Below, one piece after another: positions 1 to 47,388 of a DNA stretch of 64,000 nucleotides. Below the pieces are notes generated by a model. That model had not been told where the DNA came from. It was given only the letters and a program-made list of their open reading frames with translations, and ran no database searches. The DNA is from Paramecium tetraurelia (lineage: Eukaryota), in NCBI GenBank assembly GCA_000165425.1, contig CT867989.1:62001-126000 (forward strand), given 5' to 3'. The position numbers were made by a program, and so were the translations under genes. Position 1 is the first letter of the stretch. Each line of letters opens with the position of its first letter.

Positions 1-573
1 TTCTCACATGTCTCACTGACAAATAAGTTCTTCTCATCATGACTCAAAGCCAAACCACTTGGATGGGCTAAACATCTGTATGCTAAGGCAGTTGGCTTGA
101 TTTCTGGACCGTCTACGTCAACCATGAAAACTGAGCCAATTGGGTTTTCAACACTAGTTTCCCCAAAAGGACCTGAATCTGTAAAAAATATTGCATCTAG
201 GATTTAAATCACATTCTCGATTACTTAAGGTGACATACGAGATGATAACTTAATTGGGACCCAAGAAAGGCATTCCTTCATATTCAGTGACAAAATCCTT
301 GGCTCCTTCTTAGAGTTGATTAGTTGATGACAGTTAATTTAATTGCTTGTATGTAATTGCTTGATGTGCCATGTCAGCAATATAGATTACTGTATGATCT
401 CGTTCTATTGTAATTGATGATGGTTGTCCTCCCATTCTGGTGTCAATTTTGAGTTCGTTATTCATTATTAAAATGTCTCCATTCTCAGATACCATATAGA
501 TGGATCCATTGACTTCATGTGGTGAGGAAAGAGGATTTGAAAAAGAGCAAATTTTTTCTGCAGTTACTTACAT
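1..573 (-). CDS. SMP-30/gluconolactonase/strictosidine-synthase-like beta-propeller protein (3' end runs off window)
   Basis: Code-6 translation MQVTAEKICSF...IYIADMAHQAI...EYEGMPFLGPN...IFFTDSGPFGETS...LAHPSGLALSHDEKNLFVSET; one small GT..AG intron near 198-225. Confidence 0.75.
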
Positions 574-22313: not shown

Positions 22314-23229
22314 TCATGATTGATGTAATGTTTATTAGGGTTAAAGTTATGATTGCTGTTATTCCGGGCCCTAATTTAAAAATAACATCTCATTAAAGGC
22401 AAGGAGAAAGTCTTTCAAATCTTCTTGTTTTAAAATAGTTGTCTTTTCTGGCTATTTAGAATTGGTATTATTCATTTTATTGACATCAAATTCCCGCAAT
22501 TCATTTTCAACATGTTCCAACCACACTTTGTATGCTTCTTCTTCATTCGTGATCTGTGCCATATTCAACTAAGGAGGCGGTGACATGTATGGTATGTATG
22601 AAAATTAGGAGGATGCTACTAAAAATGTACCCACCAAAATCACCCACGAGTGAAACACTAAGGGTGCATATGTTCGATAGGAATCCAAGATCAAAATTTT
22701 GAGAGTGTGGAAGGTGGCTTCTTCAAATTTCTTAGGGACACATTTCTTGCATATTACTTCAATGTAATCATTGGGTAATTTAATATCGAATTCATATTCA
22801 ATTACCTTCAGGATTCTGCTTTCAGCTATGCAGAGTTTGTTTTACAATGATTACATTAAAGCCTCGTTTGCCATTCTTGTTTGTTCAATTGATTGCATGA
22901 TCCTGTGAAAGCTGATTAATAATTTTCTCATTCTTGGATCACCGTCTTTGATTTTTTAAGCCAATAGGAGAGATGCAGCTGCAACAATCTAAGTTAAATA
23001 TGGTATTGTTTACAAATCTGTCATATTGTAGATAACATTTGTGATGAAAGAAATAATTACATAAATGAATTGCTAAAGACACTGTTGAATAGGAGTTCAG
23101 TTCCAAATTGATGGCCAGATCAATAACGAATTAGGCATTTCCATTTAGTAATTTTCTTTAGACTTAAGCAGAGATTTCATATTCTGTGTTTATGTTTTGA
23201 AAAATGTCTTTCTTCTTAATTAATTTCAT
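22314..23229 (-). CDS. Transcription-type cyclin (T/K/L family)
   Basis: TVSLAIHLCNYFF...YDRFIVAAASLLLAQKIKD...AESRILKVIEYEFDIKLP cyclin box; one intron. Confidence 0.85.
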
Positions 23230-40801: not shown

Positions 40802-42572
40802 TCAAAACTCTAATTTTCTGATATACTCGAAATTTTCCTTTAAAAATTCCTTTTAAAATTTTTCAGGCCACTTCAATTCTTTAGCCATGATCTAGAACAC
40901 TTTCTCATACACATTAAAGATAGCATTCTAATCTAAGAAACCCAATCTTGTTCTCCTAAACAAAATGTCCTCAGGTTTTCTAGCTTGCTCATATCTAATC
41001 TGGTACAATATTTCTCCAACAGTATGGGGAAATTGTGGGTGCAAACTTTCCTTATTCTCTGGTTTTTCATGAACCAACTTTAAAACATCATATGCTCTGT
41101 CCCCATACGTTGTTAAGAAATAGGCTGCATAAGTTTAAGGTAAATTGAACATTTTCATCATATCTTAGATTTCCTTCTTATTATCAAATTATGTCCAATC
41201 ACCAACCAATTTGGGTAGATTCTCTAACCTTTTTTAATTGTTTCCAATTAATCCTTGAACCTTATCTACTGCTTATTCACCCATCAATCTAAAGATAGTC
41301 CATTTACCACCCATAACTGATACTAAACCACTTTTTGATACTTCTATTTCATGAGTTCGTGAAACTTCTTTTGTACTGAGAGCATTGCTTTAATAAACTA
41401 AAGGTCTCACTCCACACCATTTGGATTTTACATCTTTAGCTACTTCACTTGCATCAATTGCAAATTCATCACAAAATGATTACAATAACCATCTATATTC
41501 CTCTTTGCTTACTGTAGGATCACTAATTGCATTATCTAATTTTCGTTCAGTTGTTCCCATTATTATATTTCCTAACCATGGTAGCAGATAGAGAACTCTG
41601 CCATCATTAGTTTTTGGTATCAAATATCCCCACTAATGAGATCCATATTTTTGGGGCATGGTTAAGTGACTACCTGCTACTGAGACTATCCTCTTGCTAA
41701 CAGTTGGATCATCCATTAAACGTAAATTATCAGCCCAACCACCAGTTGCATTAACAACACATTTGCCTTTGATTTGAAATTGTTTCTATCCAATCTTGTC
41801 AAATGCTTGAACTCCTGTGATTTTATTTTATTCATTTTTTAATAAACCTTTAACTTCAACATAATTTGCCATGTTCTACCCTTATCAAATAACTCATAAT
41901 AATACCTTTTAGACTTGATGTAACTAGTAATTCTTAAACCATTCTGGCATCATTGAATTACCCATCATAATAAATGACCCCATAATTACATTTTGCAAAT
42001 TTAAAATGTTATTAAATTTCTTCTTTGCCAACTATTCTCGGAGGCTTAAAAGTATGTCCTCCTGTTTAGTAGTATAAGTAAACACAATGATAAATTAAAG
42101 ACCCAAAATAATAGTAACCCAAATCAAATAAATTTGTACAAGGTATCAAAGTAGGGAAATCTTATGTTAAATAAGAACACATTGATAAAAAGTTGGATCT
42201 CTCTCTTAATGCCTCTGCAACCAGTTACAACTTTTCCAATCTGTTTTTTTCCGACAATTGGAATACTTGTTACATGTACCTTACACCTCCATGAACTAAT
42301 TTTGTCGATTTGCTTGATGCACCACTTGCATAATCTTGCGACTCCAAAACTATTGATTTCAATCCTCTGTTAGCACAAGCAAGGGAAACACCTGCCCCAG
42401 TAGCTCCTCCCCCAACAATAATGACGTCGTATTCATTTAATAGTGCGTCAGCTAAATGTTCCTCTCTACTCTTCAATTTATAATGGATGTGCCTTGAATC
42501 TCCAGTACTTTATAATTAGACTTTTCGCTAGGTTAAAATTGAGGCTATTGCAACAAAGGCCACTCTATTCAT
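40802..42572 (-). CDS. GPD2: Mitochondrial FAD-dependent glycerol-3-phosphate dehydrogenase
   Basis: DVIIVGGGATGAGV, DYASGASSKSTKLVHGGVRYM, YYDGQFNDARM, VVNATGGWAD, WCGVRP, GGKWTIFRLM, EDILFRRTRLGFL. Confidence 0.96.
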
Positions 42573-43004
42573 AAATAATATTTTAATAAATAGATTTTTA
42601 ACTTAATAAAAACTAAAAATAGTCCAATTCATTCTGAAAATTTAATTAATTTAATACTTAAGTATTCATCTATTATTTAAATTAATATATATAATCTTTA
42701 TTTTATTAATCCTGCACTACTTTACTCTTCCAATAACTTTTTCTAGGATTAATTATCTTATAAAATGAATTCTCATTTTTTATCAATTTTGGTTTTATAA
42801 TATTATTAAAAATGATGGTTTAAGACCAACTACTTTATAATTAACAAATTCTCCATTATAGATATAATCAAACAACTAATAATGAGGTTTCTAGCTTTTA
42901 AGCTATTATTTTCGAATGATGTATTTTTGGATTTGTATGAGAATTAATGATTTTGGTAAAAATATATAAACTAATTTGATTTATTGAATTTTAATTAATA
43001 TTTA

Positions 43005-43574
43005 ATGGAAAAAACAATTACCATTATATTCTTGATTCTTCTAGCTATTGATTTTTTGAAACCTCAATAGAAGGAGGAATAATGGTAGGAGAGTTAAGAA
43101 TAAGTTGTAAATCCTCCTACAAGGAAACATGTTAATAATGGTAAAGTTGAAATTCTCATCTAATATTGCACAAGTTGATCTTACAAAGGGGCTTTTCAAT
43201 AAATGCAATAGGCAATATTTAGTTAGTTTGACGAAAGAGTGGAAGTGATGGGAATGCCATATCCATTGGGATAAGGCAAAGAGATATTAGTGCAGCTTCT
43301 AACAATAATCCAATATGGATTTATTGCTGGTTTGATTTTCTTCGACAAATAAATTAGTGAGATGAGTAACTTTTGGAGAACTAATATAAGTCCAAGCAGA
43401 TTAAAATATGGGTTTTTGGGTTATATTGCTCTTAATTTTGTTATTACCCAACTTTCATCATCAGGAGCATTTGAAATATTTGTAAATGATTAGTTAGTAC
43501 ATTCCAAAATCAGCAGTGGTTAGATGCCTACTATGGATACATTATTCAGAATTGTTAGGGAAAGACTATAATGA
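43005..43574 (+). CDS. SELENOT: Selenoprotein T (Rdx family, CxxU; TGA 43176-43178 read as Sec)
   Basis: Signal peptide; ILIQYCTS-TGA-SYKGAF; GMPYP; central hydrophobic helices; SSGAFEIFVNDQLVHSKISSGQMP; downstream SECIS. Confidence 0.92.
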
Positions 43575-43583
43575 AAATGGTTT

Positions 43584-43675
43584 GAAGGATCGATTATATA
43601 TGAGAATGAGAGATTTTAAGTAAAGAAAGTTAAAACTTAAGATTTTGATAAATATTGTTATATAATTGATTCTTT
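43584..43675 (+). promoter_or_regulatory. Eukaryotic SECIS element in the SelT 3' UTR
   Basis: ATGA core 43606-43609; 11-bp helix agattttaagt (43611-43621) pairing with acttaagattt (43635-43645); apical AAA 43622-43624; 3' TGAT 43646-43649; lower helix gatcgattatata/tatataattgatt. Confidence 0.9.
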
Positions 43676-43731
43676 TGTTATTAATTTATTAGTGATGGTC
43701 ATAATAATATTGCAAATTATAAAAATTACAT

Positions 43732-45582
43732 TCATTTCTTGGTCCAGGCGTGATAGAAAGCTGAGGAGGAGGATAGGGTAAAAAAAACACAATAAAATAT
43801 TGTCAGTAGTTTGGCTATGGACTTTGATATGATATAATGGTTTCTGACTGCCATAATTAATGTAAATAACAAATTAAGAAAGGCTGCTAGAATAACCATC
43901 AATTTGAAAGCATTTTACTCAATGTCAATTATACTAAACAAATTGAATTTGATGGGACCTTGATTCACAAAGTTCTGTTTCAAGAAGGCAACACTAAATC
44001 CAATCAAGTTTGTAAACATTTGACCAACTACAAATAGTTTTATCATTTTTACAATAAATTCCATTCAAAGCCATTATTGCTATAAATAGTGTTATTTCTT
44101 ACCATAACCTTCTTCAGCCAAAGAAACCAAGGTGATGCAATCTGGTAGTACATTCCCCATAGCAATCAAACTAAATCCCAAGTATGTTTTATTTAATTCT
44201 GTTATTATGCCCCAAAATTGAAGAAAATCTATTAATAAACCAGATAAAAAGAATATCCACACCAATGAACCTAAAATACAATATAGCTAAAGGTAGAAGA
44301 AATATTTTGGAGGAGTTTTTTAAGATGGGATTGTAGTATTTAAGAAAATAGAAATTCCGAATCCAAACAATAATGCTAAAAAGTAAACCCACCAATGAGG
44401 GAAGCTAAAAACAACAGAAACAAAAAAAATGGATCCTGGAATTGGAAAAACTAAAGCAATAATCAACTGATATTTACTTATTGCTTGATTTTTATCAAAC
44501 TAATCTTCCTTAGGTCCAGGCAATGTGTATTTGAATACTTACATCAAAGGGTAGATGATGATTGCCCTTATCTTCTCATATAATGACAGTCTTTCCCATT
44601 TCTACTTTTAAGTTTCAATATTGGCCATTGTCAACTGCACAGCAAATCTGAACTTTTTAGCTAGCATCTTCACTCTTGCATCTCCTGTTACATAATTTAA
44701 TCTAATTAGTGGAGTTGCCCATTTAACTGGCTTAGCAGCTAATTCCTATTCAGATTTCTTGTCCCAAAGATATAGCAATTTCATATCATCGAATTTCTAA
44801 GCAATCTCTAAATCATATTTAGCTTCATGAACCGTCTGCATTCTCTCACCCAAACTATCTTTTCTACTTTTCAATATTTTGTCTCTTTCTTAATAATAGA
44901 CCAAAGAAACTAGTAGCAAATATAAGACTGTTAATGAAATGCTAGAGAAGTAAGAGATTTAGCCAATAACTCCAAATACCATAATCACAAAAATAGAGAT
45001 TATTTGAAATCCAACATTTCTCCAAAAATGCACAGGATCCATTTTGATTTAAGATTTCGATGTTTTTGTTATTAGATACACGCCTATGCTGCATAAAAAC
45101 TAAAAATAAATTGAACAATCTATATTTTACAAATCCTGCTCCCATTGTGGCTCCAATATTATAATCAATCCCTCCTGGATAGGATGAAGCTACTAATGCA
45201 GTTAAAACGTCACCAGCCCCATTTCCAAATGCAAGTAATGTTACTCCTGCCATAATTTCTGAAACATCGAATTTCACTTTGACTGCTTCTAAAGATGGAA
45301 TTAGAAACTCTTTTATAATCTCGCTTATTCCATTATAGACCAAATAACCAACAAATCCAGACACAATTAAAGTGGTCTAAAAGTTAATGTTCTATTTACC
45401 ATAATTGAACCATTTAGCCAACAATAACTTAAAATGCTATAATTGAAGTAGAGGAAATCATGTTAGCAATACTGTTAGGCAATGTAACATTGTTAACTAT
45501 GCTCTGTTGCTGAAAGGAAATCAGCTTTTTGACATGAAAGAACTTTCGGCTCATAAGGAGCTGCAGATAAATGTTCTAACAT
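43732..45582 (-). CDS. Cation/Ca2+ exchanger (CCX/NCLX-like)
   Basis: Cys-rich N-terminus; AGVTLLAFGNGAGD (alpha-1); LGFSLIAMGNVLPD (alpha-2); GQMFTNLIG. Confidence 0.9.
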
Positions 45583-45590
45583 TAAAATTA

Positions 45591-46694
45591 ATGGGCAATA
45601 ATTGTACCTGTTGGAAACATGATTTACAAAATCAAATAGAACAAGATAAAAAATCTAAACCTAGATGGCAAAGCCTGGAGTTTTTGAAATCACAGGAGCA
45701 TAAAATAGTTAAAATGCAGTCTTGGATTCGTGGATGGTAAGCTCGTTAACGAGTTTGGAAGATTCAATTGCAGAAATATAATGACAGTGTCAATGAATAG
45801 TTAAGAACGTAGCCTCACTTTTAACAGTAGATATTCCGTCAGCGTGATTAATGTAGGATCTAGACAGCTAGCTCCATTCGATTTTGGCATTGACGATATT
45901 AATGATTCTCTCGTTCATTAAAAAGTACTCAAAGCACCAATGAAATTAGAAAATGGGTCCACCTATTTTGGAGAATGGATCAACGATTTAAGACATGGCA
46001 AAGGAATTCTAATTTGCGATGTAATTCCATTTATTTAAGAAAGGATGGTTCAAAATATGAAGGTTATTTTTACTAAGGAAACGCCCATGGGAGAGGAAGA
46101 TTAATACATTCAAATGGAGAAATCTATGAGGGCTAATGGGAGAATGATGAAGCTCATGGTTAAGGTACCTACATTCATGAAGATGGTGCAACTTATGTAG
46201 GATAGTGGGAGCATGACTTATAACATGGAAAAGGAAGTGAGAAGTGGCCAGATGGAAGGTGAGATTCATTTTTAACTGTAGTTTTTTTGAAGGAGCCTAT
46301 AAACAAGGCAAAAAGGAAGGATTAGGAAAATTTGTATGGGCAGATGGAGCAATTTATGATGGAGAATTTAGAAGCAATAATATAGATGGGTATGGTAAAT
46401 ACACTTGGCCAGATGGGAAGTAATATTTAGGCTATTGGTAAAATAACAAAAAGTAATCAAAAATAATAACTAATTAGAAATGGTAAAGGTAAGTACATAT
46501 GGCCTGATGGAAAAGTCTATGAGGGGGATTTCGTATTTGATCAAAAACACGGTTAAGGAACCTTGAGATTCCCAGATGGTAGAGTATATGAAGGAGAATG
46601 GTAGTAAGATAAACAGCATGGTCGGGCAATATTAAAATTACCTAATGGCAAAACTTCCTTTGGGGAATGGAAAAACGGAATTCGTATTAATTGA
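45591..46694 (+). CDS. IQ-motif + MORN-repeat protein with predicted N-terminal acylation
   Basis: MGNNCTCW (myristoylation/palmitoylation-like); MQSWIRGWQARQR IQ motif; many YEG.W...HG.G MORN repeats. Confidence 0.92.
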
Positions 46695-47388
46695 CATACT
46701 ATCAATCATTGGCTAAAATTATAATTCCAAAGTTTGTTTTTCTTCTCTATAAGATTTCTTTTCATTACATATTAATTCAGTTGAGTTAATTAAACTCCAT
46801 GAATAAATTTAGTTATGCTGGTTCAACAATTTTCTTTCGTTTAATTGCGTTTCTTAAGTTAAAAGAGAGAATTAGTAACTGCTACTAAAGTAATTTGAAA
46901 ATTGTTAATAAATTAACATTTGGTTTTATAATATATTTTTAGTTTTTTCATACTTTAACAGCTGGTTTCTTAATATAATTTAATAATTTATAAAGATCAT
47001 ATATCTTTAATTTACAAAGACATCAATCAAATAATACTTAAGATAGAATCAATCTTACAAGTTATACACTAAAATTTTTAGAAATTAAATTTAACCTTAT
47101 CTTATCAAAGATTCTACAAATTCTAATTATTGAAATGTCAAAGCTATATTAAATGATAAGGATTAGAATGTAAATTAGTTAATAAAAATTGTTTTTAATC
47201 ATGGAGTATTCAAAATTTATTAGATTTCATCTAAAATGGTTCTTATTGAGAATGCGATTAAACATTTGCTGTCTTTTGAATAGAACATTAAAATTGATTA
47301 TTCTTTTCAAAATATATTGTATGATGAATAAGAATATTTAAAAATATACAGTTATCAATAATGAAAACGGATTAATATAAATATAATA

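What the first reader, a model, noticed from the sequence alone, without database searches (positions are those of the whole stretch)
43005..43574. Hidden selenoprotein T: all three standard stop codons are sense in one ORF
Seen: a 190-codon intronless frame in which TAA/TAG read Gln, TGA at codon 58 sits in Y-C-T-S-[TGA]-S-Y, SelT similarity continues for 131 more codons, and a second TGA ends the gene. Known: SelT is an ER thioredoxin-fold selenoprotein with CxxU. Inference: where TGA is the only terminator, this mRNA must decode it two ways. The gene is absent from the ORF track and is likely to be truncated by automated annotation.
Basis: partly seen in the sequence, partly recalled or inferred. 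Interest (0 to 1): 0.78.

Follow-up and report, generated by a model that had tools for sequence, protein, structure and literature searches.

The report
Mis-annotated selenoprotein T gene in Paramecium
This is an expressed Paramecium gene for selenoprotein T whose internal TGA most likely encodes selenocysteine; public gene models get it wrong, but the gene family and the decoding principle are already known.

Summary
Under the ciliate code, 43005-43574 (+) is one 190-codon frame. It has 14 TAA/TAG codons read as Gln, a TGA at codon 58 inside Y-C-T-S-TGA-S-Y, 131 further codons, and a closing TGA.

The product is a SelT-type member of the Rdx family: Pfam E 4.6e-19, a confident fold model, and orthologues that UniRef names Selenoprotein T.

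Stranded RNA-seq covers the TGA at depth 69-175 with no splice joint, base difference or indel.

The TGA recurs in Paramecium primaurelia, P. sonneborni and P. pentaurelia, and in a second paralogue. Their public gene models are truncated, split in two, or carry a false 15-nt intron.

A canonical SECIS-shaped hairpin lies at 43584-43676, 9 nt after the stop (z -5.4).

Three points stay open. Rfam does not recognise the hairpin. In three raw-read libraries coverage stops inside it, near 43622-43635. The selenocysteine machinery could not be searched because no genome is held.

Use of all 64 codons through Sec-UGA was published for Tetrahymena in 2006. This is a new member of a known kind, of modest interest.

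The parts
43005..43574 (+). Complete SelT-type coding frame, 189 residues plus the stop, intronless, ciliate code with TGA58 read as Sec
   Evidence: Translations. Pfam Rdx E 4.6e-19. RNA-seq shows no joints.
43005..43007 (+). Start ATG. It is the only in-frame ATG upstream of the Sec codon.
   Evidence: Sequence. Orthologue models in three other Paramecium species begin with the same MEKTITIIF. RNA coverage was seen only from about 43009, so its presence in the mRNA is inferred, not shown.
43008..43058 (+). N-terminal hydrophobic helix (residues 2-18), a likely signal peptide or membrane anchor
   Evidence: Fold model helix 2-18. A hydrophobic N-terminus ending in an acidic residue recurs in homologues.
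43167..43178 (+). Redox motif C-T-S-U (Cys55 to Sec58) in the loop between strand 1 and helix 1
   Evidence: C55 is nearly invariant in alignment A1.
43176..43178 (+). In-frame TGA, the proposed selenocysteine codon
   Evidence: Depth 68.6/113.6/174.8 in three RNA runs with no other letters, indels or joints. Homologues carry C, or W (TGA read by another table), in this column.
43174..43188 (+). 15-nt GT..AG stretch. A P. pentaurelia gene model removes the equivalent stretch as an intron; it is not spliced here.
   Evidence: P0153 lacks S-U-S-Y-K-G and has R instead. No joint in RNA reads.
43272..43457 (+). Hydrophobic helical insertion (residues 90-151) between strands 2 and 3. This insertion separates SelT from SelW, SelH and other Rdx proteins.
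   Evidence: The Pfam match spans 137 residues for a 74-position profile. Fold model helices 90-112, 114-120 and 122-151.
43203..43574 (+). The truncated 123-aa model held in the protein collection (P0002)
43572..43574 (+). Terminal TGA. It lies 9 nt before the foot of the SECIS stem and 31 nt before its AUGA core.
43584..43676 (+). SECIS-shaped hairpin. Helix I is about 17-20 bp. The AUGA core is at 43606-43609 and the opposing GA at 43647-43648. Helix II is 12 bp (43610-43621 with 43635-43646). The 13-nt apical loop (43622-43634) starts with AAA.
   Evidence: MFE -23.6 kcal/mol, z -5.39, 0 of 200 shuffles as stable. Best of 51 loose SECIS-pattern hits in 128 kb. Not recognised by Rfam. Raw-read coverage ends inside it.
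43009..43701 (+). Extent of the assembled contig in run X3. This would be the long mRNA form with a 127-nt 3' UTR holding the whole SECIS.
   Evidence: table 8: a 693-nt contig at depth 224.8, with the next contig starting at 43703 at depth 12. The strand cannot be read from a contig.

Best explanation
The locus is a functional, expressed, intronless gene of a Paramecium aurelia-complex species. It encodes a SelT-type thioredoxin-like (Rdx) membrane protein with a C-x-x-U redox centre. UGA is the only stop codon in this organism. At codon 58 it is read as selenocysteine, directed by the SECIS hairpin in the 3' UTR (43584-43676). At codon 190 it is read as stop. The likely reason for the difference is spacing: the terminal UGA lies only 9-31 nt from the SECIS, too close to be recoded, while UGA58 lies 427 nt upstream. 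Shown here: the frame, family and fold; transcription with an unedited, unspliced TGA; conservation of the TGA across species and paralogues; and a SECIS-shaped structure in the DNA. Inferred: Sec insertion itself, the spacing rule, and ER or membrane location.
For: One Rdx domain spans both sides of the TGA.

The fold model has pLDDT 86 and the order strand 48-54, CxxU 55-58, helix 60-78, strand 79-85, helical insertion 90-151, strands 156-167, helix 177-188. Its best PDB matches are SelW-related Rdx proteins, with TM 0.83-0.90 normalised to the target and rmsd 1.3-1.8 A.

Three stranded RNA runs (415, 681 and 930 reads laid) cover the TGA at depth 69-175 on the sense strand. They show no joints, no other letters and no indels.

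Orthologue gene models end exactly at ...QYCTS in P. primaurelia (P0154) and P. sonneborni (P0005). A second paralogue ends at ...EYCTS (P0156). UniRef names three relatives Selenoprotein T.

Sixteen other sequences cover the Sec column of alignment A1. Of these, 7 have C, 5 have W, 3 have S and 1 has G. For the W type the DNA shows TGA directly, followed by a SECIS.

The window hairpin has z -5.39. It is the only one of the 51 pattern hits with helix II of 12 bp and helix I of 16 bp. Read by eye, its layout matches a Tetrahymena GPx SECIS printed in PMC2612030 Table 2: AUGA, then 12 bp, then a loop of 12-13 nt starting AAA, then 12 bp, then GA.
Against: No Rfam SECIS family matches the window hairpin, even at E up to 10 on 141 nt. 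The same library gave sub-threshold SECIS hits on L001 and L002.

In the three raw-read runs, sense coverage falls from about 45-65 (43540-43576) to 19-32 (43577-43613), then to about 1 (43614-43650), then to 0 (43651-87). If that boundary is a poly(A) site, it lies in the apical loop, and most mRNAs would lack half of the SECIS. Such a 3' UTR of about 50 nt would be the Paramecium norm of 44 nt (PMC5485702).

Coverage was seen only from 43009-43016, which is 4 nt or more downstream of the A of the ATG.

tRNA-Sec, SPS2, EFSec, SBP2, PSTK and SepSecS could not be looked for.

All five P. tetraurelia GPx are reported as Cys forms without SECIS (PMC7409322). No other Paramecium selenoprotein is documented in what I read.
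Confidence: 0.8

Rival explanations
1. 3'-end choice gates decoding. Most mRNAs are polyadenylated at about 43622-43635 inside the SECIS, so UGA58 terminates on them, giving a 57-residue peptide or decay. Only a minor long form reaching about 43701 makes full-length SelT.
For: The coverage profile in X20-X22 ends near 43622-43635, with zero sense reads in 43651-43687 against a summed depth of about 169 upstream. The Paramecium 3' UTR median is 44 nt. The X3 contig nevertheless reaches 43701.
Against: No poly(A)-junction reads or loose ends were reported (0, 0 and 3 partly laid reads). The tool itself warns that a fall in depth is no finding. An mRNA that mostly terminates at codon 58 should be a decay target, yet it is well covered. 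A contig cannot give the strand.
Confidence: 0.12
2. The annotated 123-aa protein starting at Met67 is the real product, and the upstream 57 codons are not part of it.
For: It is the only model on record for this stretch (P0002).
Against: It would lack strand 1 and the redox motif of the fold. The 57 upstream codons are conserved at 63-74% identity in other species and end at the same codon. RNA coverage is continuous from about 43009.
Confidence: 0.03
3. UGA58 is read through as Cys, Trp or another standard residue without the Sec system, as UGA is read as Cys in Euplotes.
For: Seven of the 16 other sequences covering that column have Cys. The Sec machinery was not verified here.
Against: Paramecium eRF1 is UGA-specific and UGA is its terminator (PMC4695839). 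A SECIS-shaped element sits exactly where one is needed. If Cys were meant, TGT or TGC would be a simple substitution, yet TGA is kept in several species and two paralogues.
Confidence: 0.03
4. A tiny intron (43174-43188) removes the TGA, as in the P. pentaurelia gene model.
For: The stretch begins GT and ends AG, and a public model uses the equivalent stretch (P0153).
Against: No joint in any of three RNA runs at depth 69-175.
Confidence: 0.01

Closest known systems
Selenoprotein T (SelT/SELENOT) of animals, algae, kinetoplastids and other eukaryotes
   Same: Rdx thioredoxin-like fold, a C-x-x-U centre after strand 1, an N-terminal hydrophobic segment, a long hydrophobic helical insertion, a conserved GAFE...SK motif, a Sec-UGA and a 3' UTR SECIS. 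Sec-SelT is reported in Ostreococcus, Thalassiosira, trypanosomatids and Amoebophrya (PMC2375036; abstract listings for PMC1557815 and PMC7595633; PMC6394959).
   Different: It is short (189 residues) and only 23-32% identical to the non-Paramecium homologues aligned. Its stop codon must also be UGA. Rfam does not recognise its SECIS.
Tetrahymena thermophila selenoprotein genes (2 GPx, 3 TrxR, SPS2)
   Same: A ciliate with TAA/TAG read as Gln and UGA as the sole stop. UGA is also Sec, directed by an AU-rich 3' UTR SECIS, so all 64 codons can be sense (PMC1557398; PMC2612030).
   Different: SelT is not among the six Tetrahymena selenoproteins listed there. Tetrahymena 3' UTRs are long (median 163 nt) and Paramecium ones very short (median 44 nt). 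A SECIS-bearing UTR is therefore an outlier in Paramecium.
Euplotes crassus dual use of UGA (Cys and Sec, even within one gene)
   Same: In a ciliate, one codon has two meanings in one mRNA, decided by position relative to the SECIS (as cited in PMC4695839).
   Different: There the two meanings are Cys and Sec, and the stops are UAA/UAG. Here they are Sec and stop.
Environmental SelT homologues L001-L003 (P0007 type)
   Same: The same Y-C-T-S-TGA-S-Y-K context and a SECIS hairpin of the same layout in the 3' UTR.
   Different: 28% identity to the window protein in alignments A1 and A2; one search gives 36% over the matched stretches. Their stop codon is TAA, and the SECIS lies about 55 nt after the stop. 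Rfam gives weak SECIS_5/SECIS_1 hits (E 0.01-0.2).

Membership tests
Rdx family (Pfam PF10262; SelT/SelW/SelH) | Sequence match above the curated threshold | tested here: met
   68.8 bits against a cut-off of 22.6, E 4.6e-19.
Rdx family (Pfam PF10262; SelT/SelW/SelH) | Thioredoxin-like fold with the CxxC/CxxU motif between strand 1 and helix 1 | tested here: met
   Fold model pLDDT 86. Foldseek top hits are SelW-related proteins with TM 0.83-0.90 on the target, and mouse SelW at 0.76.
Selenoprotein T | Long hydrophobic helical insertion between strands 2 and 3 | tested here: met
   Residues 90-151 form three helices. A 74-position profile is spread over 137 residues. That this insertion defines SelT is recalled, not taken from a call.
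Selenoprotein T | N-terminal signal or anchor segment | tested here: met
   Hydrophobic helix at residues 2-18. No dedicated signal-peptide predictor was run.
Selenoprotein T | Orthologues classed as SelT by a public resource | tested here: met
   UniRef names P0153, P0155 and P0004 Selenoprotein T. These are automatic names.
Selenoprotein T | ER or membrane location and redox activity | not testable with these tools
   Needs cell biology and biochemistry.
Eukaryotic selenoprotein gene | In-frame UGA aligned with Sec/Cys of homologues and present in the mature mRNA | tested here: met
Eukaryotic selenoprotein gene | SECIS element: AUGA/GA core, helix II of about 12 bp, unpaired AA in the apical loop, helix I | tested here: inconclusive
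   Structure and motifs are present and far more stable than shuffles. There is no Rfam SECIS hit. No orthologous DNA was available to test covariation.
Eukaryotic selenoprotein gene | SECIS lies within the transcript | tested here: inconclusive
   The X3 contig reaches 43701, but raw reads of X20-X22 stop near 43622-43635.
Eukaryotic selenoprotein gene | Genome encodes tRNA-Sec, SPS2, PSTK, SepSecS, EFSec and SBP2 | not testable with these tools
   No genome is held for this window. There are 0 tRNAs in the window. No statement on Paramecium was found in the papers read.
Eukaryotic selenoprotein gene | Selenium in the protein | not testable with these tools
   Needs 75Se labelling or mass spectrometry.

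The most novel reading that the evidence does not exclude
Paramecium normally cuts its mRNAs about 44 nt after the stop codon. The SelT mRNA may be made mostly in a short form that ends inside its own SECIS, with only a rare long form able to insert selenocysteine. Poly(A) site choice would then decide whether UGA58 means Sec or stop. Because the known Paramecium GPx are all Cys forms, the SelT paralogues might be the main or only reason the lineage keeps a selenocysteine system.
Probability: 0.12. Interest if true: 0.6.

Novelty: new member of a known kind. Interest (0 to 1): 0.33.

Why it matters
The result corrects a systematic annotation error. Across the public Paramecium gene models I saw, the same gene is truncated, split into two genes, or given a false 15-nt intron.

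It adds SelT to the ciliate selenoproteins; the six described in Tetrahymena do not include it. It also gives a clean natural case of one mRNA that must read its only stop codon in two ways.

The principle was published for Tetrahymena in 2006, so this is not a conceptual advance.

The unresolved 3'-end observation is the one item that could lead somewhere new. How an organism with 44-nt 3' UTRs fits a 93-nt SECIS into its mRNA is a concrete, testable question.

Tried and rejected
- **Rfam on the window.** E-value scans of 42500-44500 and of 43570-43710 gave no SECIS family.
- **Alternative SECIS inside the coding region.** A relaxed scan of 43005-43640 found nothing convincing. The best candidate, with an ATGA at 43486, folds no better than shuffles (z +0.93).
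- **Whole-genome search for tRNA-Sec.** ARAGORN found 0 tRNAs in the window.
- **Earlier findings of this scan.** Three look-ups returned nothing.
- **Orthologous DNA for SECIS covariation.** Alignments A1 and A2 were too diverse to search with. P0001 alone gave 105 pattern matches in metagenome contigs, none of them a relative.
- **Profile search with A1 in the word-indexed collection.** Only 7 hits and no new names.
- **The look-up of sequencing runs.** No RNA holder is listed among the indexed runs. RNA evidence comes only from the raw-read runs and one contig run laid.
- **Literature.** The ten full-text searches found no paper describing a Paramecium SelT selenoprotein or the Paramecium Sec machinery. 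A 2009 review that I recall as relevant is not held. The supplements of PMC4561486 list P. tetraurelia only as an analysed genome; two of its files were not searchable and its poster figure is not held.
- **Background rate of inverted repeats.** There are 78 pairs of at least 14 nt within 90 nt in 64 kb, so a hairpin alone is not rare here. Only the SECIS-specific scan is informative.

Full report
**What is in the sequence**

Positions 43005-43574 on the + strand translate under NCBI table 6 as one frame of 190 codons. It holds 14 in-frame TAA/TAG codons (8 TAA, 6 TAG) read as Gln. A TGA at codon 58 (43176-43178) sits inside ...Q-Y-C-T-S-TGA-S-Y-K-G..., followed by 131 further codons and a closing TGA at 43572-43574.

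The window has 23-35% GC. Neighbouring Pfam-confirmed genes also carry many in-frame TAA/TAG: a glycerol-3-phosphate dehydrogenase-like gene, a Na/Ca-exchanger-like gene and a MORN-repeat gene. This fits a ciliate that uses only TGA as its stop.

The closest named relatives are from Paramecium primaurelia, P. pentaurelia and P. sonneborni at 63-87% identity. The window therefore comes from a Paramecium of the aurelia complex.

**Is it more than an open frame?**

Yes. One Pfam Rdx match (E 4.6e-19, 68.8 bits against a cut-off of 22.6) runs from residue 50 to residue 186, across the TGA. It covers profile positions 2-74 of 74.

An exhaustive HMMER search of 1.84 billion representatives gave 246 proteins at E up to 0.001. 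I aligned 19 of them with the query.

An AlphaFold model built on that alignment has mean pLDDT 86. Its order is:
- strand 48-54
- the C-T-S-U loop at 55-58
- helix 60-78
- strand 79-85
- three hydrophobic helices at 90-151
- strands 156-160 and 163-167
- helix 177-188

Foldseek against the PDB ranks SelW-related Rdx proteins first, with TM 0.83-0.90 on the target and rmsd 1.3-1.8 A. Mouse SelW follows at 0.76.

The long helical insertion and the N-terminal hydrophobic helix are what I recall as distinguishing SelT from SelW and SelH. UniRef automatically names three of the Paramecium relatives Selenoprotein T.

**The TGA is real, transcribed and not spliced out**

Three stranded oligo-dT RNA runs were laid on 42800-43900. 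They gave 415, 681 and 930 reads, essentially all on the sense orientation.

The bin holding the TGA has depth 68.6, 113.6 and 174.8. The tool reported no joints, no other letters and no insertions or deletions anywhere in the stretch.

Both were run and did not refute.

**The TGA is conserved**

- In P. primaurelia the gene is annotated as two proteins on one contig. One is a 57-residue piece ending ...QYCTS (P0154). The other is a 108-residue piece starting at the Met that aligns with residue 82 (P0003).
- In P. sonneborni a 57-residue model ends at the same place (P0005).
- In P. pentaurelia the 184-residue model (P0153) replaces S-U-S-Y-K-G by R. This corresponds to removing a 15-nt GT..AG stretch, equivalent to 43174-43188 here, as an intron. 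The RNA reads do not support that splice in this window.
- A second, 38-42% identical paralogue shows the same pattern: P0156 ends ...EYCTS, and P0004 and P0155 cover the rest.
- For this window the only protein on record is the 123-residue piece from Met67 (P0002).

Among more distant homologues, 16 cover the Sec column. Of these, 7 have C, 5 have W, 3 have S and 1 has G.

For the W type I fetched DNA: loci L001-L003, found with P0007. It reads tct-TGA-tc(c/t) in the same Y-C-T-S-x-S-Y-K context, with TAA as the stop. W there is therefore a TGA read by another table.

**The SECIS**

Nine nucleotides after the terminal TGA begins a 93-nt hairpin (43584-43676). Its parts are:
- helix I of about 17-20 bp
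- an internal loop carrying AUGA at 43606-43609, opposite GA at 43647-43648
- helix II of 12 bp (43610-43621 with 43635-43646)
- a 13-nt apical loop (43622-43634) that starts with AAA

The MFE is -23.6 kcal/mol. Dinucleotide shuffles average -10.98, giving z -5.39, and 0 of 200 shuffles fold as well (a longer stretch was folded).

My own loose SECIS-pattern scan of both strands of the window found 51 hits in 128 kb. Only this hit combines a 12-bp helix II with a 16-bp helix I. One other hit has both helices of at least 10 bp.

Inverted repeats as such are common here: 78 pairs of at least 14 nt in 64 kb. The specific motif placement is what counts, not the hairpin.

The layout is the same, read by eye, as a Tetrahymena GPx SECIS printed in Table 2 of PMC2612030. 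It also matches the hairpins about 55 nt after the stop in L001 and L003.

Against it, Rfam finds no SECIS family in the window, even on 141 nt at E up to 10. The same library gives sub-threshold SECIS_5/SECIS_1 hits in L001 and L002 (30, 25.2 and 24.9 bits; E 0.01-0.2).

The Tetrahymena genome paper also notes that most of its Rfam hits to the SECIS family appeared to be false positives (PMC1557398). That selenoprotein study used SECISearch instead.

**An unresolved point: where the mRNA ends**

In X20-X22, sense-strand depth changes as follows:

| Bin | Depth |
|---|---|
| 43540-43576 | 45-65 |
| 43577-43613 | 19-32 |
| 43614-43650 | about 1 |
| 43651-43687 | 0 |

With 58-nt reads this is the shape expected if mappable RNA ends near 43622-43635, inside the apical loop. 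Such a 3' UTR of about 50 nt would be typical for Paramecium, where the mean is 44.6 nt and the median 44 nt (PMC5485702, passages read).

Several things speak against a simple proximal poly(A) site:
- No loose ends and almost no partly laid reads were reported (0, 0 and 3).
- The tool warns that a fall in depth is no finding.
- In run X3 an assembled 693-nt contig at depth 224.8 spans exactly 43009-43701. The next contig starts at 43703 at depth 12.
- In the stranded runs, antisense RNA of the convergent neighbour (stop codon at 43732-43734) appears only from the bin 43688-43724 onward.

That picture fits a long SelT mRNA with a 127-nt 3' UTR abutting the neighbour's 3' end. A contig cannot show the strand, however. 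I report this as open.

**The 5' end**

Coverage begins at 43009-43016, just inside the coding frame. The bin 42948-42984 is empty.

Paramecium 5' UTRs have a median of 19 nt. I recall that random-primed libraries under-cover the extreme 5' end, so this is expected, but the ATG at 43005 is not directly shown to be in the mRNA.

It is the only in-frame ATG before the Sec codon. Orthologue models in P. primaurelia, P. pentaurelia and P. sonneborni begin with the same residues.

**How it most likely works**

The mRNA carries two UGAs. Paramecium eRF1 recognises only UGA (PMC4695839).

UGA58 lies 427 nt upstream of the SECIS core and is decoded as Sec by the SECIS-dependent machinery. UGA190 lies 31 nt from the core and 9 nt from the foot of the stem. 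I recall from work on mammalian deiodinase SECIS spacing that a UGA closer than roughly 50-110 nt is not recoded, so UGA190 would terminate. That spacing rule is recalled and untested for ciliates.

The product would be a membrane-associated thioredoxin-like oxidoreductase with a Cys55-Sec58 selenenylsulfide centre.

**What could not be tested**

No genome is held for the window. tRNA-Sec, SPS2, PSTK, SepSecS, EFSec and SBP2 are therefore unverified.

The papers I could read do not state the Paramecium selenoproteome. P. tetraurelia is only listed among the genomes analysed in PMC4561486. Its five GPx are reported as Cys forms without SECIS (PMC7409322).

**Comparison with what is known, and novelty**

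The statement that a ciliate with UAA/UAG read as Gln also reads UGA as Sec, and so can translate all 64 codons, was made for Tetrahymena thermophila in 2006 (PMC1557398, abstract and section read).

Its six selenoproteins are 2 GPx, 3 TrxR and SPS2. SelT is not among them (PMC2612030).

Sec-containing SelT is known in green algae, diatoms, kinetoplastids and a syndinean.

The ten full-text searches found no paper describing SelT as a Paramecium selenoprotein. A 2009 review that may cover it is not held.

This is therefore a new, mis-annotated member of a known family that works by a known mechanism.

**Verdict**

- Observation: confirmed.
- Interpretation: supported.
- Confidence that this is a functional Sec-encoding SelT gene: about 0.8.
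- Interest: modest. The possible truncation of the SECIS by default 3'-end formation is the only element that could prove surprising.

Noticed in passing
window 43174-43188, and proteins P0153, P0154/P0003, P0155, P0156/P0004: Public Paramecium annotations handle the SelT TGA in three wrong ways: truncation (this window), splitting into two genes on one contig (P. primaurelia, both paralogues), and a false 15-nt intron (P. pentaurelia, both paralogues).
   Followed up: yes
proteins P0155, P0156 and P0004 (not in the window): A second SelT paralogue, 38-42% identical, exists in the aurelia complex. It also stops at ...EYCTS, so the Sec codon predates the paralogue split.
   Followed up: partly
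L001 69-743, L002 1001-1690, L003 1001-1675: Environmental SelT homologues have TGA at the Sec position, TAA as stop and a conserved SECIS. All three lack an in-frame ATG at the start of the match, which begins at a conserved TTG-GCA-GA. The start may be upstream of an intron or non-AUG. The organism is unidentified.
   Followed up: no
window 43614-43701: Sense RNA coverage in three raw-read runs stops inside the SECIS apical loop, while an assembled contig of another run continues to 43701. A second contig starts at 43703, one base later.
   Followed up: partly
window 40802-42632 (-): An FAD-dependent glycerol-3-phosphate dehydrogenase-like gene lies in two open frames that overlap at 41856-41872, presumably across a tiny intron. 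It lies upstream of SelT and is divergently oriented.
   Followed up: partly
window 43732-45267 (-) and 45975-46700 (+): A Na/Ca-exchanger-like membrane protein gene converges on SelT, with only 157 nt between the two stop codons. A MORN-repeat gene lies beyond it.
   Followed up: partly
window 22549-22600 (+): This is the only other SECIS-pattern hit with both helices of at least 10 bp (a GTGA core). Whether it lies in coding sequence or near an in-frame TGA was not examined.
   Followed up: no
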